This document shows positions 2,009 to 55,219 of a stretch of DNA of 64,000 bases, piece by piece. Under the pieces are notes generated by a model. It saw nothing but the letters and a program-made list of their open reading frames with translations. It searched no databases and was not told the DNA's origin. Positions within the stretch are counted from its first letter, which is position 1, and the number at the start of each line of letters is the position of its first letter. The translations under genes were made by a program, and so were the position numbers. The DNA is taken from NCBI GenBank assembly GCA_951406725.2, contig OX597817.1, positions 63,116,001-63,180,000 of the forward strand, written 5' to 3'. This stretch comes from Octopus vulgaris. Taxonomy: Eukaryota.

Positions 2009-2081
2009 TCACACACACATACATATATGTATATGTATATGTATATTTATTTGTTTATACATACATACATACATACATTAT

Positions 2082-2273
2082 TCTTTTATTTGTTTCAATC
2101 ATTTGACTACAGCCATGCTGTAGCACTGCCTTTTAGTCAAAGAAATCGATCCTACGATTTATTCTTTGTAAGCCTGGTACTTATTCTATCGGCACTCTTT
2201 TGCCAAACCGCTAAGTTACGGGGACGTAAACACACCAACATCGGTTGTGAAGCGACGAGGGGAGGACAAGCAC

Positions 2274-2304
<31 letters not shown>

Positions 2305-2465
2305 TACATATATACGACGGGCTTCTCTCAGTTTCTGCCAACTACTCACAAGGCTTTGGTCGGGCCAAGGCTATAGTGAGGACACTTGACCAAGGTGCTA
2401 CACAGTAGGACTAAACCTGGAACCATGTGGTTGGGAAGCAATCTTCTTACCACACAGTCACGCCT
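2082..2465 (-). mobile_element. tRNA-derived SINE (family S1)
   Basis: Matches the other S1 copies at 16027, 22026, 43181 and 54811: tRNA-like head, caccttgggcaagtgtc core, internal (CA)n, and tail related to ggcggtgctccagcatggccgcagtcaaatgactgaaac. Confidence 0.85.
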
Positions 2466-3246
2466 GTTTCCTTTATACAATTTCTGTGCGTATGCCAAAA
2501 ACTCGACACGACTGTACAGGTCAGCAGCGGGCCTTTGAAATCCTCAAATAACAATTTACGCATGCGCCGGCAATTCCTTTATATTGTTACGAAACCTGCC
2601 GTCGCTCAAACTTCGAACTCGGGACCCTACTAAGTCGAGCGACGACGATTGACCGGCCCAGTCGAACGGGATTTTAAAGGGTGGTTTCTTAAACTTTCCC
2701 TGACCGGAAAAGGGTCAAAGGTCTCTTCCAAACACATCAATTTCTCCAGAAACCGAGAGGACAAAAGGCTTTAGCCGTCTGCTTTGCGCCAACTGCCAAA
2801 ACCAAGCCACAAGCACTCTTTCTCCGAATGACCTCGTATCAATATTTAAGATTGGAGTAGGGTAGAAAATAATGGGTAGTTTCTCTGCGAAGCAAAGAGC
2901 ACATGCAAGACTCAATCCCTTATAAGGAAGATATAGTTGCTCACAAAGACTAGTCTTTTCAATGCAGCTTTGGGCTATTTCACTTGTGAAATTGTAATAC
3001 TAATCGAAACATGGTATCGTTTCTATGTACACTGTTATATATCTTGATATTGATGTTTGTATATCCTTGAATATTTTTTATGTATATACTTGCACGTATA
3101 TTACATAACATTCTCTCACTTTCTCTCTCACTCTTCCTCACACATACACTTTCTCTTTCCCCCCTCTCTCTCTCTCTCTCTCTCTCTATCTCTATCTATC
3201 TATCTTCCTCTGTATGTCTTCTCTTAGCCTCTATAATACACGTACA

Positions 3247-4790: not shown

Positions 4791-4835
4791 CAACAACCAT
4801 ACTTTCTCACTCATATCTAAATATATATATATATA

Positions 4836-4956
4836 AATAAAAACTTGGAGAAGAGAAATAACGCGTGCGTTCGGTTATAAAATAATATAAATAAAATATA
4901 TGCATATATACATACATATATGTACATACTTACATCTACATGTATATATACATGCA

Positions 4957-5022
<66 letters not shown>

Positions 5023-5918
5023 TACAGGACACCACAAATAAACGGAGAACACAACGAGAGACGAAAACATAAAATCAAACAAGGAAACGGACATTTTTTT
5101 AACAACGAAAAAACAGGGAAACGGACGTTTTTTAAACAACGAAAAAACAGAGTACAGGACAAACAATACAAGGAAAATTCCCCTTCATCAGCTGCCTCTG
5201 GTTCGACTCAATGTGTGTTTCGAAGGTAAGGGCAGAACACGGCCAGTTCGAAGGAGTCATTCCTGCAAAAGGAATTAAATGAAATTCTTTTGCAGAGGGG
5301 TAAAACAAGTGACAAAAACAGGACGTAAAAGCAATACAAATGAAGAAAAAACAGTAGAAAAAGCAGTACAAATAAAGAAATAGGACAGGGAACCAACAAT
5401 AAGGGCTTTTTTTGCCTAGACGGTGGAAAAATTAGTTAGAACGCATGTGAAAAATCGGCTTACGAAGGACAGAAGTCGATCTATACTTGTTGAAGCACGA
5501 AGCTGAAAGAAAGTTTTAGCAGCCCTCTGGTCAGGAGGAGGATAGAGAGGGAGAGGGGGGAGAGAAACCAGGGTGAAAAATAAGGAGAGAGACAAGTAGA
5601 GAGGAAGACAGGCAGGCAGAGAGGAAAGGTCAAAGAGTGCGCGTCATGATTATTCAAATAAAAACTTGGAAAAGAGAAATAACGCGTGCATTCGGTCATA
5701 TAATAATATAAATAAATAAAATATATGCATATATACATACATATATGTACATACTTACATCTACATGTGTATATACATGCATATATATATATATATATGA
5801 GTACAGGACACCACAAATAAACGTAGAACACAACGAGAGACGAAAACATAAAATCAAACAAGGAAACGGACTTTTTTTTAACAACGAAAAAATAGGGAAA
5901 CGGACTTTTTTTAAACAA
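4836..5918 (-). mobile_element. Non-coding PLE/retrozyme-like family P1, about 1.3 units
   Basis: Unit of ~820 bp, with 4836-5100 repeated at 5657-5918. Homologous to the copies at 14719, 17560, 25630, 27338 and 38735. Both ends lie in (TA)n, and hammerhead boxes are at 5180-5262. Confidence 0.8.
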
Positions 5919-5959
5919 CATATATATATATTGAGAGAGAAAGAGAGAGTTCAACTTTA

Positions 5960-7406: not shown

Positions 7407-10401
7407 CAGGATTGCCAATTTAGCATATTTTATGCTAGATCTAGCATTTTTTTTTTCAGCATTTAGCAGAAAATTTTTGAACCTAGCGTTTAGCAGGGAA
7501 AATAGGTTTAAAATTTTATTTAGCAATTTTTTTAGTATTTTTCTCTGATCATGACATTTCCACAATAGTTACCCTTGTTTCTTCTTTTTCCTCCTTTTCT
7601 ACTTTCGTTAAAGTATCTTAGCCAAATTTTCGTACTATAGGCTATTGTTGAATTTTTCTTTCACTTTCATGAAACTTCAAATGAAAATTATCCAAAGGAA
7701 ATTTATCAAGTTATGAACTTTTCCAGCCCCCACCTCACCCCGCTTGGGTACAGAGTGGTGCTTGGGGTGGGGGGAAGATAACTCATGTCAGCACCTGAAG
7801 TAACTACACAATAATGTAAATATACTGCAAAGAAAGAAAGCATGGTGACATTTTATCATGACAGGTTGACTGATTTACTTTCAGTTTGACTTTTAAAATA
7901 GGTCTGTGTTTTTTCATGCTTGTTTTGGATTATATAGCTTGTGTAGAAGTATGGGGTTGACAGGGTCTCCCCCTTTATATTTCTATTTACTCCCCCCCCC
8001 CCCCCCGTATTGTAGTTATATTTGTGGTTTTACCAATAGATATTAAATATAAGATTGGAAGTGAAATATGATGTTCCCAGGTTTATATCAGAACATAGTT
8101 TTAGGATTTCTGCAGATTTGGCTACCCAGTATCCTGAATCAGTATTCTTCACCTCAAGAATTTGTAAGCAACAAACATAAGAATTGTTAATGGCGAATGA
8201 AAGAATTCTTAGCAGCAAACTTGTTGTATTTTCAATTTTATATTTTTATTAATCATTCAATTTATTTTCTTGCTTCCCACTACATTATAATGAGCAAAGA
8301 AAAAAACAAAGATGTACCAGCAAAAAATCTGAAAGGAATGGCTTAAGATGCCAAGTGGTTGTGTGAAGTACCTAGTGACCAATCTAAAGCACATTGCAGA
8401 TATTGTAGATGTAATATGTTGGCAAAATATTCTCTTTTAGTAAGCCACTGTGAAGCAAAGAAACATAAGACATCAACTAAACAACAGCAAATGATTCCCC
8501 TTACCAATTTTATTAAATCAAAAAGGATAAGACATCTATGCTCGAAGCAAATTTAGCAATGTTTATTTGTTGCTACTCATGATTTAATAACTGTGATCAC
8601 TTAACAGAGTTATGGAAGATAGTGATATTATGTCCAAAGTGAAGTTGCATCATACAAAATGAGCAAATATTGTGAGAAATGTTCTAGCACCATATATATA
8701 TATCGATGGAGATTTGATTTCTGATATAGGAAATAGAAAATTTAGCCTGTTATTAGATGAACCCAATGATATATCGATAAACAAGTTGTTAGGAATTATC
8801 ATATATTACAGTGACACTCACAAAAAAGTGGTACATACATATCCCAGTATGGTATCTTCAGAAACATGTGATGCAGATGGCATTGTAGATGCCTTAAAAA
8901 TTGAATTAGCGAAAAGGAAGTTAAATATTTAAAAAATCACTGGGTATAGGAACTGACAATGCTAGAGTAATGACAGGAGTCAACAATGGTGTTTTGCAGA
9001 AATTAAAAGAAGTTCCATCATTAATTCTATTTAAATGTGTATGCAATTCTTTACAGTTGGCAGTATCCCACACTTGTGCTGAATGCCTGTACATAAATAT
9101 ATGTTTTAGTATCCGAAACCTATAAATGGTTCTCTCATTTTTCAACAAGACAAAGTACCTACAAACAACTTTACCTTGCTATCAATGATAAAGAGATTTT
9201 GAAGATTGTGAATTCTTGTACATCTAGGTGGTTGTCAAGAGAACCAGCTGTAAATAAAATTTTAAGCCAATGGTTTGAATTGCAAACTCACTTCCAAACT
9301 ATAACTACAAAAGAAAAATGCTTTACAGCACAAACATTACATGAAAGGTTTTGTGATTCTAGGAATGAACTTTACCTTTTATTTTTGCATCCTATTTTAA
9401 AACATGTTCAAGAAGTGAATAACCTGTTTTGAATCAAACACTGTCAACAAAACAAAATTACTTCAAGATCTTTCAAATTTAATCAAATCTGTTGCTAATA
9501 TGATAGTGCTGCCAACATGTTGAATTGATCCTCTTGATCCATGCTTCTTTTGAAAATTTTTGGGATCCTAAACCAAATTTAGGCTACAGGTTCGAGAGAA
9601 AGATAGCAGAAATGATTATCAAGAAGACTGTAACAGCCATCGAAGAAAACAATATTAACAAAAGAGCACAACAATTTTTACTCTGCATTTATAAAGAGCT
9701 CAAGCACCGTTTGCCAAAAAATATTTATATACTGAGCAATATTATGTTTTTCAGTAGAGAATATTTTGCAGCATTTCAAAGAGCCAATTTGATCTGTCTT
9801 AGAAGCAATGCATTTAAATGAAGAAAAAACTGCTTCAGTTGAAATTCAGATTAATAGCATTTATATTGTTAAATGGACAAATACATCTAATACTGAGGCA
9901 TTGTGGCTGGAAGTCTTGGAATATAAAGATGGTAGTGGGGGAAATCCTTTTAGAGATGTTGCAAATTTTGCCATTAATCTATTGACATTGCCAAACTCAA
10001 TTGCAGAAGTTGAACGGTTGTTCAGTAGTATGGGTGTAATCAAATCAAAATTGAAAAACAAAATGCATCTTCCTATGCTTAGATCAATTTTGTCTATAAA
10101 ATATGGCCTAAAAAGATATGGCAAATGTTGCAAAAACTTCGATGTTCCAAAACACATAATTAACAAGACTGGGACCTTGAATGTATACAGGAGTCAAGAC
10201 CTAGGCACTGCAGCTGAAAGTGACCAAATCAGTAAAATTCAAGAAATCACTTCTCAATGCTGAATATAATTAAAGAAAGTAAATAAAAATGTAAATAAAA
10301 ATTAAGCTTTTTGATATAATTACTCTTTAGCATTTCTTTTTTCTTTTTTAGCATTTTTCTAAAATTTAGCATAGATTTCTGATTTTAAGTTAGCTACACT
10401 G
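7407..10401 (+). mobile_element. hAT DNA transposon, full length and decayed
   Basis: Termini caggattgccaat... and ...gttagctacactg. tagcattt subterminal repeats at both ends. Degenerate TSD (cctaaag / ccaagaag) where the uninterrupted family-A site reads cctagaag. Confidence 0.8.
8290..10263 (+). pseudogene. hAT transposase pseudogene with frameshifts and stops
   Basis: BED-like finger AHCRYC...SHCEAKKH, FSLLLDE first catalytic Asp, GIGTDNA, SRWLS, and the C-terminal dimerisation motif LLTLPNSIAEVERLFSSMGVIKSKLKNKM, spread over five ORF pieces. Confidence 0.9.
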
Positions 10402-15471: not shown

Positions 15472-16520
15472 GAATCGCTGTTGTTTCGTCACATAATGTA
15501 AAGACTTCCGCCCGTCCCCCTCCCCATTTTCTCCTCAATTTTTTTTTGCCAAAAACCCCCGTTTTCGGATACGGAGGTTCCGGAAAATTGCCAAAAATCG
15601 GCATTGCTAAATTTCCTCCCTTTTCCTCCAAATTCTTCAATTTTGACTTTTTTCCCCAACACGAACCGTAACCCTACCCTAACCCTAAAACGCTAACCCT
15701 AACCCTAAAACCCTAACCCTAACCCTAACCCTAACCGTAAGTACAGAAATATTTTGACATTTTTGTCCGAATCATAATGTCAGTATTTTTCCGCACATTT
15801 AGAAAAAATAAATTCTTAAAAAGAATTTTATAAAAATTTTTGGAAAATTTTTTCAGAATCATAATCTCCGTATTTTTCCGCATATTTTGAAAAAAATTTT
15901 TTTGAAAATAGTAAAAAATGATGGAAATGCGGGTAGAATTTGGTAATTTAAAAATGCCGGTTTTTGCTTTCTTTTCTTTTTTTTTTTTTTGCAGATTCGT
16001 ATTCCCCGTAGCCGAAAAGGGAGGGTTACTCTTACTCTTTTACTCTTTTACTTGTTTCAGTCATTTGACTGCGGCCATGATGGAGCACCGCCTTTGGTTG
16101 AGCAACTCAACCCCGGGACTTATTCTTTTGTAAGCCCAGTACTTATTCTATCGGTCTCTTTTGCCGAACCGCTAAGTGACGGGGACGTAAACACACCAGC
16201 ATCGGTTGTCAAGCAATGCTAGGGGGACAAACTCAGACACACAAACATATACACACACATACATATATATATATATACATATATACGACAGGCTTCTTTC
16301 AGTTTCCGTCTACCAAATCCACTCACAAGGCATTGGTCGGCCAGGGGCTATAGTAGATGACACTTGCCCAAGATGCCACGCAGTGGGATTGAACCCGGAA
16401 CCATATGGTTGTAAGCAAGCTACTTACCACACAGCCACTCCTGCGCCTGTCGAAAAAAAATTTTTTTTAAGGGTGGCTTTGGGGGTGGGGGCGGAAGTGT
16501 TTCCATAACACACTCGATTC
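15472..16520. mobile_element. TIR element carrying internal telomeric (CCCTAA)n and a nested SINE
   Basis: Left end gaatcg...acttccgccc and right end gggcggaagt...cgattc. (CCCTAA)/(CCCTAAAA) repeats at 15665-15737. No clean TSD seen. Confidence 0.55.
16027..16448 (-). mobile_element. S1 SINE, full length
   Basis: High similarity to the other S1 copies, with a (tactctt)n tail. Confidence 0.9.
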
Positions 16521-17448: not shown

Positions 17449-17524
17449 GATATTACTAAAGAGAAAGAACAAGAAGAGATAGAGAAGTATCGAGGAACCA
17501 CCTCAGATACACATGCATCTAGCG

Positions 17525-17559
<35 letters not shown>

Positions 17560-17565
<6 letters not shown>

Positions 17566-18030
17566 ACATATGCATATATACATACATATATGTACGTACC
17601 TACCTCTACATGTATATATACATGCATATATGGGTACAGGACACCAAAAAAACGCCGAACACAATGAGTAACGAAAACATAAACACAAAACCAAGGAACT
17701 AGACATTTTTCTTAAACAACGAAAAAATAGAGTACAGGACAAATAACACAAGGAAAATTCCCCTTCTTCCGCCGTTCTCAAAAATAGCGTTCATAACACT
17801 TTATCTCATCGGCTTAACAGCCCTTCTTGTCTTGTTATTCTCCTTGTCCTGTCTTTTACTGTTTATATTTTGTACTGTCGTTACTGTCCTGTTTTTGTTA
17901 CCATTTTTACCCCTCCGCAAAAAGATCTCAAATTTTATTTAATTTGCTTTTCGCGGGAAGGAAAGTTTCTATTGGAGAGGCGTATCGCCTTCACCTTCGA
18001 AACGCCATGTTATGGCGCGGTCACTGATGA
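17560..18030. mobile_element. Family P1 copy with internal inversion
   Basis: 17560-17780 matches P1 on the minus strand and 17810-18010 matches P1 on the plus strand. Confidence 0.75.
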
Positions 18031-20270: not shown

Positions 20271-21040
20271 TACAGATTTTTAAATAATTTTTTGTAACTA
20301 AACACTTTCAAACTTCGGACATCGGTAGAATGTGTCATATAAAACATCTTTTACTCTTAGCATTTTTGAGAAAAACTTATATTTTCGAAGTAATTTCACG
20401 TTACAGTAGTCCTCTTTCGGTAATTTCAACCACTCAATGACGTGTATTCAGCTGAAAAAATACTGCTGTTGTTTGTCAACAACAACTATCGGCGGTGTAT
20501 TTTTCGTTTCTCACTGTTAATTATGACATCGTTCGTGCGTTTGTACTAGTTTTCGGGTTAGGGTTTTAGGGTTAGGGTTAGGGTTAGGATTTTAGGGTTA
20601 GGGTTAGGGTTAGGGTTTTAGGGTTAGTTAGGGTTAGGGTTTTAGGGTTAGGGTTAGGGTTAGGGTTTTAGAGTTAGGGTTAGGGTTTCAGGGTTAGGGC
20701 TAGGGTTTTAGGGTTAGGGTTTTAGGGTTAGGGCTAGGGCTTTAGGGTTAGGGTTAGGGTTGTCATAAATAACAGTGGCAAACGAAATATACACCACCGG
20801 AAGTTCTTGTTGACACACAACAGCAGTAATTTTATTCAGCTAAATACACGTCATTGAGTTGTTGAAATTACTGAAATACGACAACTTTAACGTGAAATAA
20901 CTTCGTAAATATAAGTTTTTCTCAAAAATGCTAAGAGTAAAAGAAGTTTTATATGACACATTCTACCAGTGTCCGAAGTTTGAAAGTGTTTAATTTACAA
21001 AAAATTATTTTTTAAATCTGTTGGTCAAGAGGTAAAGATC
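20271..21040. mobile_element. Family M foldback MITE enclosing a telomeric array, left terminus lost
   Basis: Arms 20271-20528 and 20761-21021 are reverse complements. The right end is ...aaagatcc. It shares the ggtagaatgtgt motif with the copies at 10783 and 31414. Confidence 0.8.
20555..20760 (+). repeat. Interstitial telomeric repeat (TTAGGG)n with TTTTAGGG variants
   Basis: Directly visible, about 200 bp. Confidence 0.95.
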
Positions 21041-21302
21041 CATGCTGACAATTCATCAACTGATCGCTGTTTATTAACGCAATCTTTACATTGTATTATC
21101 GTAATTATTTCAGCAATTCTGGGTGCACATTTGTTCCTCTGTACGCTATACAGTCTAACGTGTTTTAATAGTGGACTATTTGAATTTGTAATTCACTGAG
21201 TTCCACTTTATATCATGGATTAGCCTAGACAAAGACATGCTATTAGCCCTAGCCTCCGACCGGAAGCTACAGTAGGAGTTATGCAATCTCTTCTAAAATT
21301 AT

Positions 21303-22025: not shown

Positions 22026-22440
22026 TAGGCGTAGGAGTGGCAGCTTGCTTACCAACCACATGGTTTCGGGTTCAGTCCCACTGTGTGGCACCTTGGGCAA
22101 GTGTCTTCTACTATGGCCTCGGGCCGACCAAAGCCTTGTGAGTGGATTTGGTAGACGGAAACTGAAAGAAGCCCGTCGTATATATGTATATATGTGTGTG
22201 TGTGTGTGTCTGTGTCTGTGTGTGTGTTTGTGTGTCTGTGTTTGTCCCCGCCCAACATCGCTTGACAACCGATGCTGGTGTGTTTACGTCCCCGTAACCT
22301 AGCGGTTCGGCAAAAGGGGCCGATAGAATAAGTACTAGGCTTACAAAGAGTAAGTCCTGGGGTCGATTTGCTCGATTAAAGGCGGTGCTCCAGCATGGCC
22401 ACAATCAAATGACTGACATATGTAAAAGAGTAAAAGAGTA
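22026..22440 (+). mobile_element. S1 SINE, near full length
   Basis: tRNA-like head, core, (TG)n and (aaaagagt)n tail. Confidence 0.9.
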
Positions 22441-25629: not shown

Positions 25630-26541
25630 TTGCTTCGTTTCTCTGTATTTTTTTTTCGTTGTTCGAAAAAAGTTCGTTTCTATGTTTTTGTTTTTATGTC
25701 CTCGTTTCTCATTGTGTTCAACGTTTTTTCTTATGTCCTGTACTCATATATGCATGTATATATACATATAGATGTAGGTGTGTACATATATGTATGTACG
25801 TATGCATATATCTATATATTATTTATATTATTATATGATCGAACGCCACGCATCCTTTTCCAAGTAAGTTTTATCTTAATAATTACGATGAGCACTCTTC
25901 TACCTCTACTATCTCTTCTCTGTCTATCTCTCTCCCTCTCTTGTTCTTCATCTTTTCTGGTTTTCTCTCTCACCCTTCCCTATTCTTCTCTCCTCTTCGC
26001 CGTTCCCTCTCTCTCACTCCTCCTCCTCGACTCTCTCGTTGCTGACACGTGACGAAAGATAATCTGTCTTTCTGCCCATAACCTTCGGAAAGAAAATACG
26101 TGCTTATACTGTCTCCTTCATAAGCTCGTCTTCCTCGCGTTCATAATAATTTTTCTATTGTCTTGGCTTAACAACCCTCACCGTTTGTTTTTACTGTCTT
26201 GTTCTCACTGTCCTGTTCTTGTTACCACTTTCACCCTCCGCAAAAAATTCCAAATTTTATTTAATTTGCTTTGCAGGAAGGATTGTTTCAACGAAGTCGC
26301 GTCTTGTCCTTGCCTTCGTACGTGGAGTAGATGAAACAGGGACAACTGAAGAAGGGGAATATTCTTTATGTTGTATGTCTCGTTTCTGTTTGTTTGTTTT
26401 TGTTTGTTCGAAAAAAAGTTCGTTTCTATGTTTTTGTTTTTATGTTTTTTGTTTCTCATTGTGTTCAACATTTTTTTATGTCCTATTCCCATATATGCAT
26501 GTATATATACATATATGTAGGTATGTACATATATGTATATA

Positions 26542-26546
<5 letters not shown>
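25630..26546 (+). mobile_element. Family P1, about 1.2 units
   Basis: 25633-25810 is repeated at 26378-26546. Hammerhead boxes at 26283-26357, with the GAAA box damaged. Confidence 0.8.
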
Positions 26547-27188: not shown

Positions 27189-27240
<52 letters not shown>

Positions 27241-27337
27241 GGGGTCGATTTTCTCGACTAAAGGCAGTGCTCCAGCATGGCCGCAGTCAAATGTCTGAAA
27301 CAAGTAAAAGAGTAAAAGAGTATATATATGTGTGTGT

Positions 27338-27381
27338 TTTCGTTTCTCGTTGTGTTTTACGTTTATTTGTGGTGTCCTGTA

Positions 27382-27439
<58 letters not shown>

Positions 27440-27687
27440 TGTATATATACATATGGATGTAGGTATGTACATATATGTATGTATGCATATGTTTTATTTG
27501 TTAAATTGTTATTATATGACTGAGCGCATGGCGTCGTTTCTTATCCTCCAAGTAAGTTTTTAATAATTATGACGCGCACTCTTTAAACCTTTACTTGACC
27601 TTTCCTTCCTGCCTGTCTGTCTTCCTCTCTACCTGTCTCTCTCCTTCTTATTTTTCACCCTTTCTGGTTTCTTTTCCACTGTCTCTG

Positions 27688-27719
<32 letters not shown>

Positions 27720-28217
27720 ACACACTCCTCCTCTCTCTGGCTGCTGACCGGACTACTAAAAACTTTCTTTCGCTCGCAGATTTCAACAAGTCAACACCGA
27801 CTGTCTCTAGCAAGTCGATTTTCTGAATTGCGGTCCAACGAATTTTTGCACCGTCGAGGCTTAAAAAAGCCCTCAATGTTGGTTTCCTTGTCCTGTTTTT
27901 ATTCTTTATGTGTACTGTATTTTTATTTGTATTGTTTTTACGTCCTGTTCTTGTCACCTTTTTTCTTTTTTTACCCCTCTGCAAAAAGAATTTTATTTAA
28001 TTCATTTTGCAGGAAGGATTGCTTCGGACGGATCGTGTTCTGCCCTTACCTTCGAAACACGCATTGAGTCGAACCAGGGTCAGCTGATGAAGGGGAATAT
28101 TCCTTGTATTGTTTGTCTTGTACTCTGTTTTTTCGTTGTTATAAAAAGTCCGTTTCCTTGTTTGTTTTTATGTTTTCGTTTCTCGTTGTGTTCTACGTTT
28201 ATTTGTGGTGTACTGTA

Positions 28218-28280
<63 letters not shown>

Positions 28281-28360
28281 GCATGTATATATACATATAG
28301 ATGTAGGTATGTGCATATATGTATGTATGCATATGTTTTATTTGTTAAATTGTTATTATA
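27338..28360 (+). mobile_element. Family P1, about 1.2 units
   Basis: 27338-27517 is repeated at 28174-28360. Hammerhead boxes at 28023-28095. Confidence 0.8.
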
Positions 28361-28702
28361 TATATATATATATACTGAATTCAGCTGGCGTGTTGAGAAT
28401 TAAGCCTTGCGGCAGAGGAAAATAACGATGTGACCGTGATCGTGGTCCAACACAAAAGGACTAGTAGTCGGCCAGCGGTCACGTGAGAAGAGAAGAGAGA
28501 GAAAAGGAGGAGCAAAGGAGGAGCAAAGGAATTAAGGCGGGGGAGAAGAGAGAGAAAAAGAGGAACAAAGGAATTAAGGAGGGGAGAAGAAAGAGAGAGA
28601 GCGTGTAGATCGAAGAATCAAGGATTGGCGAGAAAAAAAAGAGAAAGACAGGGACATAGTGAAGTGCAAAGTAAGAAAGGCAAAGGTATATATACACATA
28701 TA

Positions 28703-30568: not shown

Positions 30569-31080
30569 AGACAAAAACCCCACGGACAAAAGATCCTCGG
30601 ACAAAAGCCCCATGGACAAAAGACCCTCGGACAAAAGGCCCACGGACAAAAGACCCTCGGACAAAAGCCTCACAGACAAAAGACCCTCAGACAAAATCCC
30701 CACGGATAAAAGACCCACGGACAAAAGACCCACGGACAAAAGACCCACGGACAAAAGACCCACGGACAAAAGATCCTCGGACAAAAGCCCCATGGACAAA
30801 AGACCCTCGGACAAAAGGCCCACGGACAAAAGGCCCACAGACAAAAGACCTTCGGACAAAAGACACTCGGACAAAAGACCCTCCGACAAAAGCCTCACGG
30901 ACAAAAGACCCTCAGACAAAAGCCCCACGGATAAAAGACCCTCAGACAAAAGCCCCACGGATAAAAGACCCACGGACAAAAGACCCTCGGACAAAAGACC
31001 CTCGGACAAAAGACCCACGGACAAAAGACCCACGGACAAAAGCCCCTCGGACAAAAGCCCCACGGACAAAAGCCCCAAGG
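30569..31080 (+). repeat. 15-bp minisatellite (ggacaaaagaccc[a/t]c), about 34 units, the expanded terminal repeat of family A
   Basis: Directly visible. The same unit occurs at the family-A termini (6825-6870, 12768-12780), and the array continues into family-A arm sequence. Confidence 0.9.
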
Positions 31081-31413: not shown

Positions 31414-32249
31414 GGATCTTTTCGGTTTGAACGGCAGTTTTTAACATAATTTCTAGGTAACTAAAAAATTTTAAACTTCGTATACTGGTAGAATGTGTTT
31501 ATAAAACATAATTTTCTCTTGGCTTTCTTGAGAAAATTCTGTAGTTTGTAACATATTTCGTCTTTAATTTCTTGCATTTCGGCAATTTTAACCAATCACT
31601 GGCGTCCATTGAGGTAAACAACATTCTGTGCCGTATGAATATGTCCTTCGTTGAAGAAACAGATTGGGTTTATTTATATTTGTGAAGAAAAAAATATACC
31701 CTTCCCCCACCCCTAACCCTAACCATAACCCTAACCCCAACTAACCCTAACTAACCCTAAATCTAAAACTAATTGAAATGCAATAGATCGATACTAGGGT
31801 CATAATTATGGGTGACAATTTCATATGGCACCGCTAGAAAAAACTGCCATTTTCCCTAGCGGTGTCATATGAAATTGTCACCCATAATTATGACCCTAGA
31901 ATCGATCTTTTGCATTTCAATCTATTTTACATTTAGGGTTAGTTAGAGTTAGGGTTATGGTTAGGGTATCTTTTTTTCTTCACAAATGTAAATAAACCCA
32001 ATCTGTTTCTTAAACGAGGGACATATTCATACGGCACAGAATATTGTTTACCTCAATGGACGCCAGTGATTGGTTAAAATTGCCGAAATGCAAGAAATTA
32101 AAGACGAAATATGTTACAAACTACAGAATTTTCTCAAGAAAGCCAAGAGAAAATGATGTTTTATAAACACATTCTACCGGTATACTAAGTTTAAAATTTT
32201 TGTTACCTAGAAATTATGTTAAAAACTGTCGTTCAAACCGAAAAGATCC
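31414..32249. mobile_element. Family M MITE, a near-perfect 836-bp palindrome with telomere-like repeats in both arms
   Basis: ggatcttttc...gaaaagatcc with TSD aaaatctt (31406-13 and 32250-57). Arms are about 400 bp with a ~20-bp spacer near 31838-31855. CCCTAA repeats at 31711-31765 and TTAGGG-like repeats at 31933-31966. Confidence 0.9.
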
Positions 32250-38175: not shown

Positions 38176-38660
38176 TTCTCTTTCTCTCTCTCATTTTGTT
38201 GCAGTTGTTGCTGTTGATAGTTTTGTTTTTGATTGTAGTTGTTGTTGTTGAGCAGCAATTTGGAATCCTGATTCAGCAGATTTATTATTGTAAATGTTCT
38301 TAGCTTGCCCATTCTGTCGCTTTCCAAAGATTCTTAAGGGCTTCAAAACAATTCTAAATCCGAATTACTACCTGTTCTACCACCCTCTCTCCCCATACCC
38401 TCCTTTTATCTTTGTTCACAGACACACACACACAAATATACGGATGTATATATGTGTATGTGTGTATATATATATAAGATATATATATATATAAGATATA
38501 TATATATATATATACTTTATTTAAAGCAGCAGAAAAATTCAACAAAACCTGTTACTCTGAGTTTCCCGTTGCCATTCATCGGACAGTTTTTGCTAGAATG
38601 GAACCGATATTTCAATTCTATATATATATATATATATATTTATAAGATATATATATATAT

Positions 38661-38730
<70 letters not shown>

Positions 38731-38734
38731 AATA

Positions 38735-39135
38735 TATGCATATATACATACATATATTTACATACCAACATATATATGTATATATACATGCATATAAAGG
38801 TACAGGACATCAAAAAAACGTTGAACACAATGAGAAACGAAAACATAAAAACAAAACAGAGAAACGAGACATACAACATAAAGAATATTCCCCTTCTTCA
38901 GTTGTCCCTGTTTCATTTACTCCACTTTTCGAAGGTAAGGACAAGACGTGATTTCGTTGAAACAGTCCTTCCTGCAAAGCAAATCAAATAAAATTTGGGA
39001 CTTTTTTGCGGAGGGTGAAAGTGGTAACAAGAACAGGACAGTAAAATCAATAAAAAAGTAAAAACAGTAAAAGACAGAACAATGAGAACAAAACAGTAAA
39101 AACAAACAGTGAGGGCTGTTAAGCCAAGACGATGG
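38735..39135 (-). mobile_element. Family P1 partial copy
   Basis: Reverse complement of 26160-26546, with hammerhead boxes at 38890-38971. Confidence 0.8.
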
Positions 39136-40260
39136 AAATACATACATACATATTTTAAGTAATAACAAACCAGGAGTTATGTAATAACATTCATTTGCTT
39201 ACAGTTTTTCCCACTATAAGGAACTATCTATGAAAACAGTTTTCAATAATGGAAACTACTGCAGCCAATGTAGGTCTTTATGTAACATCTTTTCTGAGAG
39301 CCCTTGTGCTGGTCCACATAAAAAGGTACCTGTGTTGCACGTAAAATAGCACCCAGCATACTCTGTACAGCGGTTGGCATTAGGAAGCGCATTCAGTCAT
39401 AGAAACCAAGCCAAATCAGACTGGAAAATAGATTTTAAATGATGTTCTGTCATTCATTTATTAATAAATATTTTGCCATGTACTTATCTTTTAGATAGGA
39501 ATTTAGAAGTCAGAACATCTGTGAGTTGACACAAACTCAGCATTTGGAGCTTAGAAATACCATGCATTATATTGGGGTCAGGCAACTTAACTCCAAACAA
39601 TGGAGGCAGTAAGCCTTGAAATCACCCCCAAACCGCCATATCTGTTTGTCTGCTGGCATCACTTTCAGCTTGGTTTCATGTGGTTTTCCACACAAAGTTG
39701 ATAGAGAAGAAAAAATTTTCCAGAGACAAATCTCACGCTGGAATGCCTTTCACTTTCTTGCATACAGAAGCATACTGAAAATTAATGTATGCATCCCTAT
39801 TTTGATCCTTGCTGATTTGTGTGCATATACAAAGGATCCAATCTGTTAACTATTATGTCTATCTATCTATCAAACTTCCCTTGGTTAATGGCATTAAGGT
39901 CGGACAATTGTCATGCTGATGATGATTACTGAGGTAAAAACATGTATGATGTCTGTCCTTTTACCTCCAGACAATGAGCCTATTCTTTTGCTTTATTGGT
40001 ATGTTGACTATGCAGAATTTTTGTTTATTGAAATTATCTCTCCTTGTCATATGAAGCTGGTTTTAATTGTCATTTGGTAATTATGACATGTCTTCTAGAG
40101 GCTGAGATAATTTTTAAATCAAGAATTTATGTTGTATGGTATTTGATATGCCTGTATTTGTCTATGTTGCTAAAATACATGCTATTGGCCACACTCTAGT
40201 GTTTTAGAATTATATGTATCTATGTCACCAAAAGTATGTGTGTGTGTGTTTGTGTATGTG

Positions 40261-41115: not shown

Positions 41116-42405
41116 TTGGGTTGGCAACTAAGTTCTTGCTGTTTTTTTAAATTTAAATTTCTTAAAAGGTTTAATAAAAAATAACAACTAATTAATAATG
41201 TATTCACCCTTGTTGTTTACAACTTCTTCCCAATGTTCAACAAGATTTTCAATACCTCGTTTTGGAGAAATCACCCAATTTCGACTCGAAACATTGATCC
41301 AACCAAGCTCTCAATACTGCATCAGTATTGAATGAAGCTCTCCCCATAGCATTTGAAAGAGGTTGAAAGAGGTGGGAATCCATTGGTGCCAAATCAGGAG
41401 AGTACGGCGGGTATGGCAGTGCTTTCCAGCCATGCATTTGGATGGCTTCCTTGGTCATATTGTCACTATGAGGGCAGGCGTTGTCGTGCAGCAGAAGAAC
41501 TCCATGCTGCCGATTAGGTCTTTTCTCTTGAATAGCCATGTTGAGTTGTTCCATCTGTTGAACATAAAGTTCCATGTTGACTGTTTGGTTCCGTTCAAGC
41601 AATCCGTAATGGATAATCCCTTTCCAGTCCCACCATATGCACATCGTTTTATGTGGATGAAGATCTTGTTTCACACGTGGTGTTGCTTGTTTACCGGGGC
41701 TAAGCCATTCCTTACACTGCTTCATATTGATGTACAGGCACCATTTTTTGTCACCAGTAACAATTTGGTAAAGAAATCGTTGCCTGTGTCCATGAGTTGA
41801 GCAGTGACGAGTAAGCAAACCAGCAGAGATTGTGGCTCATTGATTTTTGTTGTTGTCATTTAAAGCATTCGGAACCCAAGCTCCATACTTCTGAACCTTT
41901 CCCATTGAGTGAAGAAGCTTCTCTATAGCAGTGTGGGAGCATTCCATTTTCTCTGCCAGTTCCCTTGTCGTTTGATGAGAATTTTCGTGCAAAAGTTGGC
42001 TTAATCGCTCTTCATTGAACTCAACTGGACGGCCAGAACGAGGTGCATCTTTGAGGTCAAAATTTCCATTTTTGAACTTGGCATACCAATCACGAGCGGT
42101 TCCTTCAGTTATGGCACCCTCTCCATACACAGCACAAATGTTGCGAGCAGCTTTTGCGGCCTTAGAACCTTGATTAAAAGCAAAAAGAAGGAGGTGTCGA
42201 AAATGCACATTTTTTTTAACTTGACATTCCGTTTTAATGATTTGAAAATAAAAAAAAATTAACTAAAATTAACTAGAAAAAGAAAATAAAATAGATTTCA
42301 AAATGATTCAAAAATAGAATTCTTGAAAAAAATAGATTCCCAAATTTAAAAACACAATAAATTCCAAAATTTCAAAAAGCGGCAGGAACTTACTTGCCAA
42401 CCCAA
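41116..42405 (-). mobile_element. Full-length mariner (DD34D) transposon with decayed transposase
   Basis: TIRs ttgggttggcaactaagttcttgctg and cggcaggaacttacttgccaacccaa with TA flanks. Motifs WVP, TGDKKW, HDNACPH and YSPDLAPMD in ORFs 42208-41837 and 41818-41249. Confidence 0.95.
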
Positions 42406-43180
42406 TATATTATTAATATATTTTTGATATGCTCACTATATATTTAAATGTATGCTTATTCTATTATTAAGTGTTCAACTTCATATATTCTACAGCATTC
42501 CACTATTACCTTACTGACAGATATAATGATGCAGCATGGAATTTTGTCAATGAACAGGCCATGGTTTCAAAGCGACGAAGATATAATGAATTCAACTTTA
42601 ACCTCCTTATTTATTACATTATATGCATGTATTTCTTACTTTAAGCCGAACAAATAGCAGAAATGATTTGAAATTACAGATTGAAAGCTCAGAAAGCTCA
42701 GGTGTGTTGATACCTCCTCATATCTATACAAGAAATATTGTTCTTCAGAAACTTTTGCAGTGAATGTGAATAATAATGCTTATTATGTACATTTGTAGCT
42801 TTTGCATGGAATATGTCAAATATGTTGCAAATGTGAAGCTTTAACATAAACAAGAGCTACTGTCCCTCGTCAACCTTTTAGGAAATGAATATATGTAACC
42901 TGTTTGTAAGATCATGTGCCTATGAGTAAATATGGATATATTCTGGTAGTTTTGAATATATACACATGTACAGCATTTATGAATTTATGTAGAGCATTTA
43001 TTGGAGAAAATAGTAATGTAGAATAACATGTGACTCATTGACTGCAATATACTGTACATATTAAAAGTAATCAAGCCTGTATAATATTTGGAGAGTGATA
43101 AATATAATTTTCTTATTTTCATGTTACTTTGGCATTTCTAATTGCATCTTCATACACCCATCAGTAAATTTCATCATGCA

Positions 43181-43350
43181 TAGGAGTGGCTGTGTGGTAA
43201 GTAGCTTGCTTACGAACCATATGGTTCCGGGTTCAGTCCCACTGCATGGCACCTTAGGCAAGTGTCTCCTACTATAGCCTCAGGCCAACCAAAGCCTTGT
43301 GAGTGAATTTGGTAGACGGAAACTGAAAGAAGCCCGTCGTATATGTGTAA

Positions 43351-43382
<32 letters not shown>

Positions 43383-43607
43383 GTGTGTATATGTTTGTGT
43401 GCTTGTGTTTGTCACTCCAACATCACTTGACAACCGATGCTGGTGTGTTTATGTTCCCGTAACTCAGAGTTTGGCAAAAGAGACTGATGGAACAAGTACT
43501 AGGCTTACAAAGATTAAGTCCTGGGGTCGATTTGCTCGACTAAAAAAAGGCAGTGCTCCAGCATGGCTGCAGTCAAATGACTGAAAAAAGTAAAAGAGTA
43601 AAAGAGT
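43181..43607 (+). mobile_element. S1 SINE, full length, CpG-decayed
   Basis: Aligns with 22026-22440 with several CG>TG/CA differences. Confidence 0.9.
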
Positions 43608-44324
43608 ATGCACATTTTTCAGCAATATCTCTAATTAGAAACTCGAGTATTCATAAATATAAGCCAAAATGTAATTATCTTAAAGTTTAGTAAAACACCC
43701 ACCATCATTATTGATGGCACAGTTACTCTTATATATATGTGTTTGTGTGTGTGTGTGTGTGTACCTATACTAAACTGAGATAATTTGTGTTTATACACAC
43801 ATTCACACATATATAAAAGTATATAATATCTGTCAAACATAGATGTGGATTTTTGACTTACCCTATTTTGGAACTCTCTTACGCTCCTTGAATTCCAGGC
43901 CTACCATGGATTGCTTCATTTTTAAGAACTGACCATTTTGATGTATTTTTAATCGATGGGTAAATTTTTTAGTCTATTAATATGTTTTAGTAATTCATTT
44001 AATCACCTACTTTAATCAATTTTTATATACATTTTTCTGGATAGATCCTTATATATATTTTTGTATTTTTTATATATGCATATATTTTTTACCTTCAGTG
44101 TTTAAATATATATTTCTTTTATATGTTGATGACCATGATATTATTTGTATATGATGAAATGTATAGAAGTATGGGGTTATATAAAGCCATTGGCCCAAAT
44201 TTGATGTCTGTTTTCTAATCAATGATATATACATACATACATATATATATATTGATAGAAATGTTAAGACAACAAAAGAAAGAGAGAGACCTCAATATTA
44301 TGTAAATTGAGGAATTTATCTGTA

Positions 44325-44377
<53 letters not shown>

Positions 44378-45662
44378 CAAGGGTGGGGCAGAGAGAACAG
44401 ACGTTTTTGAAATGGCTATTACTCAGCCGCAGTGGGAGGGACATATGTCCGACAGGTACCTTTCGGTCCATAGTCTCTTAGCATTTTTTTCTTTTCAGGT
44501 GAAGCCATGGCGCTGTGGACGATAGAGCATTGCATATTTGCCTATGACAGTTACGTGAAGAATACAGAGTCTGTCACAGGAGTTCAGCGTGAATTTCAGC
44601 GCCACTTCAACATTCACCGAAATCAGGCTGTTCCCATCCATTACACAATCTTAACGCTGGGAGAATGCACTTCGTACACGCTGTACACTAATGAATAGGA
44701 GACCAGTGGGGGCACCATGAATGGTACAAACCCTGGAAAATGTGGAAACCAGATAAGCTTTGATATGGAGTTGGAATTGCTCTGCTTGGAGGCATTCCAC
44801 TGAACTTGGCTTTGGTTATCGATTGATATTTTGCATGAAGACCTGCACTTCCACCTGTACAAATTGGTCATTGGCAACAGTTGAAACCATGGGACTATGC
44901 ACAGTGGCTTAACTTTACATGTCAGAAGAAAGTAATTTTTGAGGCAAATGACAACCTCATTTTGTTAAAGATGTGATGAAGCTCATTTTCATCTCAGTGG
45001 TATGGTAAATCAACAGAACTGTCGTTATTGGGCTCTTGAATATCCAAGGAAACTGCACAGCCCAAAAGTGACAGTCTGGTGTGCTGTTGGAAAAGCTGCC
45101 ATCATTGGTCCTTACTTTTTTGAAGACAATGATGGAAATGCTGTTACTATGAACTCTGAGCATTACATCAAGGTGATAAACAACTTCTTCGTGCCTGAAT
45201 TACAACAAAAATATATGCCTATTCAATGTGTGTGGTTTCAGCAGGATGGGGCTATGGCCCGCACAGCCAGAGTGTCAATGGTGACCACCTCATTTCCAGA
45301 TTTGCTGACATTCTATGGCCCCCTCGGTCCCCTGATTTGTCCATATGTGATTATTTCTTGTGGAGAAACCTCAAGGCACATGTATATGCGCACAAGCATA
45401 TTGGGTGATTTAAAGGAAGCTATTCATGTGGAAGTCGCCCAAGTTGACAGAGCAAAGCTGGAGAGAATGGAGGCCAACTTCCAAGAACGCCTTCAGAAAT
45501 GCAATGAAAATGGACACCTCATAATGGATGTTGTCTTCTACACTTTATTTTGACAAATGCTAATTCAATACGAACACATTGATGTTAATAAAATTTATTT
45601 GCAGCTAAAATTAATGATTTTATGAATTTTTCAAAAACGTCTGTCCTCTCTGCCCCACCCTG
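44378..45662 (+). mobile_element. Tc1/mariner-superfamily transposon of DUF4817-HTH (rosa/DD41D-like) type, decayed
   Basis: TIRs caagggtggggcagagagaacagacgtttttga and tcaaaaacgtctgtcctctctgccccaccctg with TA flanks. Motifs VTGVQREFQRHF, DEAHFHL, VNQQNCRYW, WFQQDGA and WPPRSPDLSICDYFLW. Confidence 0.9.
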
Positions 45663-46950: not shown

Positions 46951-47181
46951 ATATATATATATATATTTGGTGAAATAGAAAGATGAATAATCTTGTTGCA
47001 GATTAATCAAAAGTTTAACCGATACCTTGGTAGCAAAAATCACAGCAGAAGAAAGCACGGTTGGAGGTACAACCATATGGTGTTGCAACCGTGCGTTGGT
47101 GCGGATAATTGAATTTTAATATTATTAGTGAATTGAAGAAATGGAGTTGAACGAAGATTGAACAGAAATCCTTTTATTGCA

Positions 47182-47261
47182 TTCTACACGTGTTTCGAAA
47201 GCCACAATTTACCAAATTCCGATTGAATAAGGAGACCATATTGTGTCTTTCTCTTCAGGAA
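47182..47261 (-). ncRNA. Type I hammerhead ribozyme (inverted pLTR copy)
   Basis: Reverse complement of 48840-48919. Confidence 0.75.
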
Positions 47262-47784
47262 GAAATGGGAAATCCGCTGGCAGAACAAAAACAGAACAGA
47301 AGCGCAGCAAAACAAATCGAACGAGGAGGCTCCTAAGAGCCCATGGCCAAACTGTTTATCAATGTTGAAATCGGGTGGTGGGCGCGTTGAAGATATTTAC
47401 AGGTCAGGCAGCGGTCAATCCGGTGGGTGAGAGCATGGGGTGCGTAGATGTTCTTTGTGATCGAGACTAAGGTTCTGACTATTTTAAGAATATTAGGTGT
47501 ATTATGTGGGGCGAGACAAAATCTACGAGGATTCGTAAGGCCAATTTTGACGATGAGGCCCCGACATATGAGTAGACATCTGAGTCCGTGTAAACCTTGC
47601 ATTGGTAAACGGCTTTTCTGATCTTAGAGCTCCCTGACATGAACCTTATTCTATTAGGATTAGTTTCTGAAATAGCAACTCAAGCATCGTTTCCGGCAAT
47701 AGCAGGAACACGGACACTAGCAATTACAGCACTCTGAGTGATAGTGAAGAATCAGGGGTTATTCCGTTAGTTAATAGTGACTTA

Positions 47785-48273
47785 GTGGTAAATAAAGTAG
47801 TAAGCGGCTGCACTTCTCGCAATCAATATAGTAATAGTAACGCAGTTCTGATTTCAGAAACTAATCCTAATAGAATAAGGTTCATGTCAGGGAACTCTAA
47901 GATCAGAAATGCCGTTTACCAATGCAAGGTTTACACGGACTCAGATGTCTACTCATATGTCGGGGCCTCATCGTCAAAATTGGCCTTACGAATCTCCAAC
48001 CATTACGCAACTTTTCGCGACGCGAATAAACACCAGGCCACGGGACTTAGCAAGCTAATATGGCGATTGAAGAATACGAGCTCAAGCTACAGGCTGGAAT
48101 GGTCAATTTTGTCGGTGGCCCTCCCATTTGATAGGGGCAGAAGGAAGTGCAACCTTTGTGTCTCTGAGCTTTTCCATATATTGTTCGCCAGAGACCGAAT
48201 GGTAAACGGACTTTTGCAGTCGGCTTTTCGATGCCCCCATTGGCGGCGTTTTACTTATCTTGCTTATAAATGA
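47785..48273 (+). CDS. Penelope GIY-YIG endonuclease domain (truncated ORF, no RT present)
   Basis: AVYQCKV...YVGASS...RISNHYATF...LSKLIWRLK...WSIL...KCNLCVSE...CPH. This is a GIY-YIG domain with a C-terminal Cys/His motif, resembling Naiad-type PLEs (clade assignment not verified). Confidence 0.8.
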   Translation: MVNKVVSGCTSRNQYSNSNAVLISETNPNRIRFMSGNSKIRNAVYQCKVYTDSDVYSYVGASSSKLALRISNHYATFRDANKHQATGLSKLIWRLKNTSSSYRLEWSILSVALPFDRGRRKCNLCVSELFHILFARDRMVNGLLQSAFRCPHWRRFTYLAYK

Positions 48274-48839
48274 CGCTTACAAATGATACCTGCACCCGGT
48301 TACCCTACTTATATGAAAATAGCCCTTGGAAATAAGCTTTTTAAGATAGATTTGATTAACCATTGCAAGGGGAATTACTCCTATTAGGCGAATGGTGTTT
48401 TGTTTTGACGACGTGAGGTTCTTTTTGACTAAGCATGATTAGACGAACACACGAACACATAAAATTATTATTTTCTGCCGCCTGACAGATTTTTCAGCAG
48501 TGACCATTGTGCAGTGCCTTTTACCAACTTACGGCCGCATACATATAGAACAGTTCACACACACATGTTTCTAAGTAGATTTTGCCTCGCCCCACATAAT
48601 ACACCTAATATTCTTAAAATAGTCAGAACCTTAGTCTCGATCACAAAGAACATCTATGCACCCCATGCTCTCACCCACCGGATTGACCGCTGCCTGACCT
48701 GTAAATATCTTCAATGCGCCCACCACCTGATTTCAACATTGATAAACAGTTTGGCCATGGGCTCTTAGGAGCCTCCTCGTTCGATTTGTTTTGCTGCGCT
48801 TCTGTTCTGTTTTTGTTCTGCCAGCGGATTTCCTATTTC

Positions 48840-48919
48840 TTCCTGAAGAGAAAGACACAATATGGTCTCCTTATTCAATCGGAATTTGGTAAATTGTGGC
48901 TTTCGAAACACGTGTAGAA
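48840..48919 (+). ncRNA. Type I hammerhead ribozyme in the Penelope pLTR
   Basis: uuc-CUGAAGA-gaaag.cacaau...auugug.cuuuc-GAAAC-ACGU-GUA-gaa. Palindromic loop 3, short stem I, followed by aataaa. Confidence 0.78.
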
Positions 48920-48974
48920 TGCAATAAAAGGATTTCTGTTCAATCTTCGTTCAACTCCATTTCTTCAATTCACT

Positions 48975-49783
<809 letters not shown>

Positions 49784-54667: not shown

Positions 54668-54810
54668 CAAAAAATATAATATAATAATAGGAATAGTACA
54701 ATATAACGATACAATGCATCCCAGGGTCCATTGCTAGTGTATGTGTATGTGTGTGTGTGTAAATATATATGTGTGTGCGTGTGTGTGTGTATGTATGTAT
54801 GTATGTATAT

Positions 54811-55219
54811 ACTCTTTTCCTCTTTTACCTGTTTCAGTCATTTGACTGTGGCCATGCTGGAACACCACCTTTAGTCGAGCAAATCGACCACAGGACATAT
54901 TCTTTGTAAGTCTAGTATTTATTCTGCCGGTATCTTTTGCCGAACCGCTAAGTTACGGTGATATAAACACACCAGCATCGGTTGTCAAGCAATGTTGGGA
55001 GGACAAATACACACACACAAACATATACGCACACACACATATATATACATATACACGACGGGCCCCCTCCAGTCCCCGTTCACCAAATCCACCCACAAGG
55101 CTTTGGTCGACCCAAGGCTATAGTAGAAGACACTTGCCCAAAGTGTCACGCAGTGGGACTGAACCCAGAACCATGTGGTTCGCAAATAAGCCACTTACAA
55201 CACAGCCACCCTTACGCCC
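54811..55219 (-). mobile_element. S1 SINE, full length
   Basis: Aligns with 16027-16448. Confidence 0.88.

What the first reader, a model, noticed from the sequence alone, without database searches (positions are those of the whole stretch)
27338..28360. P1 copies are more than one unit long with different end points, a retrozyme-like or circular-RNA signature
Seen: three copies (4836-5918 minus, 25630-26546, 27338-28360) each comprise a ~0.75-0.84-kb non-coding unit plus a 170-260-bp terminal redundancy. Start and end points differ between copies and are not at the ribozyme site, and all copies sit in or next to (TA)n. There is no ORF, TIR or TSD. Established knowledge: PLEs make partial tandem insertions, and retrozymes are non-autonomous hammerhead-bearing elements that move through circular RNAs. 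Inference: P1 is a non-autonomous element reverse-transcribed, possibly from a circle, by a TA-targeting Penelope protein.
Basis: partly seen in the sequence, partly recalled or inferred. Interest (0 to 1): 0.75.

Follow-up and report, generated by a model that had tools for sequence, protein, structure and literature searches.

The report
Scrambled ribozyme retroelement shows cutting footprint
This is one of thousands of copies of a protein-free jumping element that carries a scrambled, predicted self-cutting RNA; many copies begin just after the predicted cut site, which likely records cutting in the animal, and the proposed RNA circle is not needed to explain them.

Summary
The three copies are real, more than one unit long and non-coding, but their ends are not a circle signature. 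In 83 long genomic copies the 3' ends sit at two fixed points (58 at the unit end, 17 at a ~50-nt tail). The 5' ends scatter, and 22 copies carry 5' inversions. This is the Penelope-like element (PLE) pattern. P1 holds a complete hammerhead core in non-circular (SGC) order, with the stem II partner strand upstream, so the core is open between A9 and G10.1. Three helices covary, and the same fold ends Naiad PLEs in this genome. The scan found this ribozyme before on other DNA; I reached it before looking that up. New here: in copies sampled by position, 5' ends pile up 0-25 nt after the predicted cut. In one sample 37 of 90 end there against 9 of 53 just upstream; in a second, 21 of 64 against 1 of 43. 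This likely records cleaved linear templates. Naiad copies show little pile-up (2 of 27). Cleavage, circles and the partner enzyme are untested.

The parts
27335..28361 (+).
   Evidence: (L001)
27335..27515 (+). 5' redundant segment (3' part of a previous unit, a pseudo-LTR); contains no ribozyme
   Evidence: 93.7% identical to 28171-28361
27516..27575 (+). Unit start: the ~50-nt tail that some copies add at their 3' end, with a predicted hairpin (27531-27537 with 27569-27575) around a conserved CCAAGT motif; likely second reverse-transcription start (inferred)
   Evidence: tail ends at +28..+65 in 17 of 83 copies; hairpin compensatory changes seen by eye among consensuses; positions
28013..28090 (+). 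Permuted hammerhead. Stem II 5' strand 28013-28017, helix b 28019-28025, stem III strand 28034-28038, H17 = T28039, stem I strand 28040-28046, stem II 3' strand 28049-28053, GAAA 28054-28057, stem III strand 28057-28061, b' 28071-28077, stem I strand 28077-28083, CUGAUGA 28084-28090. This copy has one mismatch in stem I (C28043/T28080)
   Evidence: sequence; pair counts; descriptor and shuffles
28039..28040 (+). Predicted cleavage site (GUU^C); genomic 5' ends pile up 0-25 nt 3' of the equivalent site
28171..28361 (+). 3' redundant segment, ending at the main fixed 3' end, then (TA)n
4835..5919 (-). P1 copy 1: 1.31 units, ends at the tail site (+48); ribozyme passes the descriptor (H17 at 5236); a 34-bp duplication and a 4-nt deletion are each seen at both ends
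   Evidence: L111
25635..26600 (+). P1 copy 2: 1.25 units, older subfamily; ribozyme core broken (GAAA replaced at 26318-26320)
   Evidence: L061
14719..15091 (+). Short 5'-truncated copy of a young subfamily (genomic relatives 95-97% identical); begins at the 5' edge of the ribozyme; intact core, H17 at 14746
17509..18005 (-). Truncated copy with a 5' inversion (17509-17772 minus, 17828-18005 plus); the direct part starts inside CUGANGA
38614..39138 (-). 5'-truncated copy with a mutated core (stem III change)

Best explanation
P1 is a non-coding ~0.75-0.8-kb repeat with fixed 3' ends, variable 5' ends and a permuted hammerhead motif, likely copied into (TA)n by a Penelope-like (probably Naiad-type) RT/GIY-YIG protein from linear RNA that the ribozyme likely cuts. 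Shown: the anatomy, the two 3' end sites, the scattered and inverted 5' ends, the covarying ribozyme fold, and the pile-up of 5' ends just 3' of the predicted cut. Inferred steps: (1) the PLE protein nicks (TA)n and starts reverse transcription inside the RNA at one of two sites, 230-280 nt downstream of the ribozyme; (2) on uncut RNA it runs on and stops at random, giving sub-unit to 1.6-unit partial tandems; (3) on RNA already cut at H17 it runs off the end, giving ~0.25-0.3-kb copies that start 0-25 nt after the cut; (4) the core assembles from four strands, with stem II formed by an upstream strand, either through a sharp bend between helix b and stem III or as a dimer.
For: 3' ends: 58 of 83 at -20..+5 (SD 5 nt), 17 of 83 at the tail, 8 elsewhere; 5' ends run from -438 to +492 (SD 152); 22 of 83 carry 5' inversions. 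This matches PLE anatomy and the two-start tail in PMC8557442 and PMC11167929. Ribozyme: across 11 rows, 93.2% of cells pair and 10 of 24 pairs change on both sides (1 of 500 shuffles as high; slid controls 41-50% paired). N7 and H17, the free core positions, vary while the core is kept. The descriptor hits 2 window copies and 0 in 30 shuffled windows. The upstream stem II strand gives 5-6 Watson-Crick pairs in P1, the L102 family and Naiad, with different letters (shuffle P 0.007-0.023 each); the downstream option gives 1. The same fold lies downstream of Naiad RT in 4 of 30 RT loci. 5' ends, sample 1: 37 of 90 at risk in 0..+25 vs 9 of 53 in -26..-1 (P 0.003); with microhomology allowed, 41 of 89 vs 4 of 48. 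Sample 2, anchored 130 nt downstream: 21 of 64 vs 1 of 43 (P 6e-5), about 4.6 expected; new copies only, 13 of 44 (P 0.005).
Against: Cleavage was not measured, and a core opened between A9 and G10.1 has no tested precedent that I found. In Naiad copies only 2 of 27 5' ends fall in the same window, so the footprint is not general. The 5' ends peak at +6..+16, not at 0, so trimming must be assumed. A transcription start or an RT stop at the same place would look alike. Stem II is invariant within P1, so its support comes from three families only. Alignment rows are related and were pre-selected for an intact core. No partner was found: P1 matched PLE loci only as antisense insertions or short TA-rich 3'-end matches, the Naiad copies retrieved are broken, and the intact young PLEs are Neptune-type with type I hammerheads.
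Confidence: 0.68

Rival explanations
1. P1 moves through a circular RNA monomer made by two ribozyme cuts and ligation, and the redundancy comes from RT going more than once round the circle (first reader; retrozyme model).
For: 51 of 83 long copies exceed one unit (the set is biased to long copies). The two ends of a copy share more variants than expected (28 vs 9.6) and are closer than ends of other copies in 22 of 28. 9 of 83 span two cut sites and could release a monomer. PMC4209133 proposes this route for PLEs.
Against: 3' ends are fixed. No copy exceeds 1.61 units, though this test is weak at the measured truncation rate. 2 of 97 position-sampled copies carry a second C-block. The unit does not fold better than shuffles (z +0.63), unlike the self-paired retrozyme circles in PMC7229834. 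Cut ends appear to be copied as linear ends. One copy (L026) joins halves about 19% apart. Template jumps or tandem source loci explain the shared variants equally well.
Confidence: 0.17
2. The motif is a folded but non-cutting RNA element, and the 5' pile-up marks a transcription start or a reverse-transcription stop.
For: Naiad copies lack the pile-up (2 of 27). The peak is 6-16 nt from the site. In the anole Poseidon PLE, cleavage needed protein, was dispensable in vitro, and no RNA-seq reads ended at the site (PMC11167929).
Against: The pile-up has a sharp 5' edge at the predicted cut (1 of 43 in the next 26 nt). A structural stop should fall at the 3' edge of the fold (+26..+51), where the rate is background. 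TA/AT microhomology is not enriched in the peak window. Core nucleotides are kept while N7 and H17 vary.
Confidence: 0.12
3. P1 is only the pseudo-LTR or UTR debris of a coding PLE (or a TRIM/LTR element), not an element of its own.
For: The unit resembles a pseudo-LTR, and the partner search was not exhaustive (30 GIY-YIG loci, 11 PLE loci).
Against: The unit joins 3' end, tail and ribozyme with no coding segment, in several subfamilies of different ages. 5' ends are not fixed and no TSD is seen, which argues against LTR/TRIM.
Confidence: 0.03

Closest known systems
Type-SGC hammerhead ribozymes (HRIMA-1 and variants; Eckert et al. 2023, PMC10085705; read part 1 of 8, section 13 and passages)
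   Same: Order of cleavage site, GAAA, CUGANGA; short link from stem I to stem II; a fourth helix that uses the strand just 5' of stem I
   Different: Here the stem II 5' strand and the helix partner lie upstream, so block C, which the paper assumes cannot be interrupted, is split between A9 and G10.1. The paper found SGC only in metatranscriptomes, not in genomes of known organisms. P1 cleavage is untested.
Naiad Penelope-like elements (Craig et al. 2021, PMC8557442; read passages, section 15 and six supplement look-ups)
   Same: (TA)n target, fixed 3' end, tail, partial tandem and inverted 5' parts. The same split-SGC fold lies at the 3' end of Naiad copies in this genome and, by eye, of several published consensuses.
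   Different: P1 has no ORF and shares no sequence with the Naiad copies beyond the ribozyme design and a similar stem I. The paper reports no canonical hammerhead in Naiads. Naiad copies show little 5' pile-up at the cut.
Metazoan non-LTR retrozymes (PMC7229834, passages; bioRxiv 10.64898/2026.07.22.740005, part 1 of 5)
   Same: Non-coding, hammerhead-bearing, probably PLE-mobilised
   Different: Those have type I hammerheads in tandem repeats of 150-450 bp and abundant self-paired circles. P1 has a permuted hammerhead, a ~0.78-kb unit, mostly one ribozyme per insertion and no rod-like fold.
Non-autonomous Chlamys elements such as MRC1 (passage in PMC8557442)
   Same: Non-coding PLE derivatives with pseudo-LTRs, once mistaken for LTR elements
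   Different: Those resemble their autonomous partner at the 3' end and mostly lack hammerheads; no such partner was found for P1.

Membership tests
Non-autonomous Penelope-like element | Fixed 3' end with optional 30-50-nt tail, variable 5' truncation | tested here: met
   58 + 17 of 83 3' ends at two sites; 5' SD 152 nt
Non-autonomous Penelope-like element | Partial tandem (pseudo-LTR) and inverted 5' segments | tested here: met
   51 of 83 exceed one unit; 22 of 83 inverted
Non-autonomous Penelope-like element | No protein coding | tested here: met
   0 of 5 frames hit Pfam; longest ATG frames in consensuses 68-141 aa
Non-autonomous Penelope-like element | 3' sequence shared with an autonomous partner | tested here: inconclusive
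   no sense junction in 30 + 11 PLE loci; only the ribozyme design is shared with Naiad; search not exhaustive
Hammerhead ribozyme | Conserved core CUGANGA, GAAA, UH, G10.1-C11.1 and stems I-III | tested here: met
   Rfam gathering search of the window found nothing
Hammerhead ribozyme | Self-cleavage after H17 | not testable with these tools
   indirect only: 5'-end pile-up
Type-SGC hammerhead (Eckert 2023) | Block order S-G-C | tested here: met
Type-SGC hammerhead (Eckert 2023) | Block C intact: stem II strand directly follows CUGANGA | tested here: not met
   downstream strand gives 1 Watson-Crick pair (2-4 with G-U), upstream strand 5-6, in three families; a weak downstream alternative remains possible in P1
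Metazoan non-LTR retrozyme | Type I hammerhead | tested here: not met
   strand order is non-circular; no Rfam hit
Metazoan non-LTR retrozyme | Tandem units each with a ribozyme | tested here: not met
   2 of 97 position-sampled copies have a second C-block; 9 of 83 long copies span two cut sites
Metazoan non-LTR retrozyme | Abundant circular RNA monomer | not testable with these tools
   only contigs were available, none on record as RNA
LTR retrozyme / TRIM | Fixed LTR termini, short TSD, type III hammerhead | tested here: not met
   5' ends scatter; no TSD seen at three copies

The most novel reading that the evidence does not exclude
Animal genomes carry an active hammerhead whose catalytic core is opened between A9 and G10.1 and completed by an upstream strand, a wiring outside the six published permutations. 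It is the missing ribozyme of many Naiad elements, and the 5' ends of thousands of P1 insertions are a genomic record that PLE-type ribozymes cut the retrotransposition template in vivo.
Probability: 0.5. Interest if true: 0.88.

Novelty: new variant of a known kind. Interest (0 to 1): 0.76.

Why it matters
The role of hammerheads in Penelope-like elements is open: in the one in vitro system, cleavage was dispensable and no reads ended at the site (PMC11167929). A pile-up of insertion 5' ends at a predicted cut site gives a sequence-only readout of cleavage in the germ line that can be applied to any PLE family. The fold would extend non-circular hammerhead permutations from environmental RNA to animal genomes, break the assumption that the CUGANGA block is indivisible, and explain why standard descriptors and Rfam miss the ribozyme of many Naiads. 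The end map also warns that terminal redundancy alone does not show an RNA circle.

Tried and rejected
Type I, II and III readings of the motif were rejected. The later GTC (28068-28070) has no stem I after it, nothing reading GAAA follows CUGANGA, and the minus strand lacks CUGANGA. Intron model: a donor-like motif is present, but the acceptor AG is absent in two consensuses. No skipping joint appeared in four contig sets; contigs cannot show absence. Run search: no RNA holder listed, which is no evidence on expression. Contigs under five coded organism labels hold the sequence but cannot show ends or strand. Partner search: 30 GIY-YIG loci, 20 wider PLE loci and 20 Naiad-RT neighbourhoods gave no second Naiad family with a P1-like end. 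The first 5'-end script mis-chained some copies through TA runs and was replaced by a change-point method. That method still counts a few internal deletions or insertions as ends (L353, L381, L384, L436 in the peak; L322, L356, L385 upstream); removing L436 gives 20 of 64. The first alignment held one wrongly placed row and was redone. Dropped rows: 7 of 90 long loci lacked a central anchor (83 used); 3 of 100 listed places of sample 1 were not recovered (97 used); the last 10 of 100 places of sample 2 were not fetched (90 used). Both samples come from contig C1, and 22 copies are shared.

Full report
1. Observation. The window lies in a 2.8-Gb, octopus-like animal genome (G000). The three copies exist at about the stated places. 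They belong to subfamilies 67-75% identical to one another, with units of 750-801 nt. Three shorter copies were missed. The frames across them are low-complexity, with no Pfam match in 5 of 5. The family is large: 2,055 exact matches to the intact core, 0 for the reversed control.

2. Ends. I mapped 83 of 90 long copies, the best hits to the three window copies and so biased to long ones. 58 end within -20..+5 of one site and 17 at +28..+65 (a tail); 8 end elsewhere. 5' ends run from -438 to +492, and 22 copies have an adjacent inverted segment. A young subfamily shows the same 3' ends by eye (output partly cut). This is the anatomy drawn for PLEs in PMC8557442. The two 3' sites match the two internal RT starts shown for an anole PLE in PMC11167929. 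So the ends that differ are the 5' ends, and terminal redundancy is ordinary for PLEs.

3. Ribozyme. Rfam finds nothing, yet the hammerhead core is complete. The order is: stem II 5' strand, helix b, stem III strand, UH, stem I strand, stem II 3' strand, GAAA, stem III strand, b', stem I strand, CUGANGA. On 11 rows (one per 90% cluster with an intact core, plus the flagged copy), 93.2% of cells pair and 10 of 24 pairs change on both sides, in helix b and stems I and III; slid controls pair 41-50%. The rows are related, so these counts are not probabilities. A descriptor hits 2 window copies and none in 30 shuffled windows. The flagged copy fails it by one stem I mismatch, and copy 2 has lost GAAA. 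The block order is type SGC of Eckert et al. (PMC10085705), validated there in vitro but reported only from metatranscriptomes. The difference is stem II. In P1, in a second family (L102) and in Naiad, the upstream strand gives 5-6 Watson-Crick pairs with different letters, while the strand after CUGANGA gives 1. The core is therefore open between A9 and G10.1 (inferred).

4. Link to Naiads. A motif taken from the published octopus Naiad consensus has 316 exact matches in G000. It lies downstream of a PLE RT frame in the same orientation in 4 of 30 RT loci. A neighbouring frame matches the published Naiad protein by eye. Craig et al. found no canonical hammerhead in Naiads. Of 30 CUGAUGA places shown from their supplement (27-56 of 62), I read by eye 7 as the split-SGC fold. 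One more lacks a clear stem II, two are in the canonical order and one does not fit; the remaining places I did not read as Naiad ribozymes. So the fold is common in Naiads but not universal. Which protein moves P1 is open. The Naiad copies retrieved are broken. The intact young PLEs (781-aa frame) are Neptune-type by their domain order and linker (label) and carry type I hammerheads.

5. Footprint of cutting. I sampled copies by genome position with anchors downstream of the cut, so without regard to 5' length. Sample 1 (97 copies): 37 of 90 at risk end in 0..+25, against 7 of 97 in +26..+50 and 9 of 53 in -26..-1 (P 0.003). Allowing for chance TA matches the figures are 41 of 89 and 4 of 48. 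Sample 2 (90 copies, anchor 130 nt downstream, 22 shared with sample 1): rates per nt are 0.002-0.004 downstream, 0.0126 in 0..+25 (21 of 64) and 0.0009 just upstream (1 of 43); new copies alone give 13 of 44. A decline with length or TA microhomology does not explain a peak with a sharp 5' edge. Against generality: only 2 of 27 Naiad copies end in this window (by eye; P 0.0009). A transcription start at the same place cannot be excluded.

6. Circle. For: the redundant ends of a copy share 28 variants against 9.6 in controls, and diverge 5.6% against 6.4%; 9 of 83 long copies span two cut sites. Against: fixed 3' ends, a maximum of 1.61 units, 2 of 97 copies with two C-blocks, and no excess folding. 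I give the circle 0.17.

7. Mechanism. Likely: a TA-targeting PLE protein primes at one of two internal sites. Uncut RNA yields random-length and partial-tandem copies, and cut RNA yields short copies starting at the cut. How the four strands close is open. Helix b and stem III need a sharp bend in a monomer, or the fold is a dimer. Earlier scan notes proposed a kink-turn; by eye 7 of 11 rows have a GA on the 5' side of that loop, which is only partial support.

8. What is known. Eight library searches found no paper placing an SGC or split-core hammerhead in an animal genome or in Naiads, or reporting 5' ends piling at a PLE ribozyme site. The library lacks most subscription journals. The bioRxiv supplement was not seen and most of the Craig supplement was not read; either may bear on this. 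Also seen: PMC4209133 parts 1-2 of 4, PMC11167929 parts 1-2 of 4, PMC13282606 passages (no mention of ribozymes). The scan's earlier notes describe the same ribozyme in this and other genomes; the summaries I saw did not mention the 5'-end footprint.

9. Verdict. A real non-autonomous Penelope-like element. It works like a retrozyme in being non-coding and ribozyme-bearing, but it fails membership of the known retrozyme families. Its ribozyme is a new variant of the hammerhead. Interest 0.76.

Noticed in passing
window 47119-48982: GIY-YIG-like frame (47671-48273; no Pfam hit; resemblance to Hydra-clade PLE ends is by eye and recall) between 408-bp inverted repeats of 98.8% identity: a young inverted PLE insertion in (TA)n, unrelated to P1 in sequence
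   Followed up: partly
L102:1-900 (minus strand): A second non-coding family with the same split-SGC ribozyme, different stems and a similar tail hairpin
   Followed up: partly
L061-L090: Long copies of the copy-2 subfamily carry many different lesions at GAAA (1 of 30 pass the descriptor vs 24 of 30 in the young subfamily). Broken ribozymes may favour long copies, but age and query bias were not excluded.
   Followed up: no
L091-L095, L037, L098, L102, L103, L108: Young Neptune-type PLE with an upstream frame and an intact 781-aa RT/GIY-YIG frame in many copies. PLE 3' ends in this genome show type I hammerheads with core variants (U3-A8, A3-U8) read by eye.
   Followed up: partly
window 2078-2466, 16033-16455, 22042-22440, 43169-43615, 54810-55218, 27240-27329: A ~400-bp dispersed repeat, SINE-like (label recalled); a fragment of it forms the 5' flank of the flagged copy
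   Followed up: no
window 15664-15740, 20272-21042, 31711-31760: Telomere-like TTAGGG arrays, one in the centre of a 260-bp inverted repeat
   Followed up: no
window 30570-31077: 34 copies of a 15-bp unit with open frames on both strands, next to another dispersed repeat
   Followed up: no
window 9097-10263, 41249-42262, 44969-45553, 59287-59754, 62617-63000: Broken frames that look like DNA-transposon, helicase and LINE remnants (labels by eye and recall, no scan run)
   Followed up: no
PMC8557442 supplement, part 25: The hemichordate Naiad 3' end has a different structured motif with GAAA but no clear CUGANGA block; possibly another ribozyme variant
   Followed up: no
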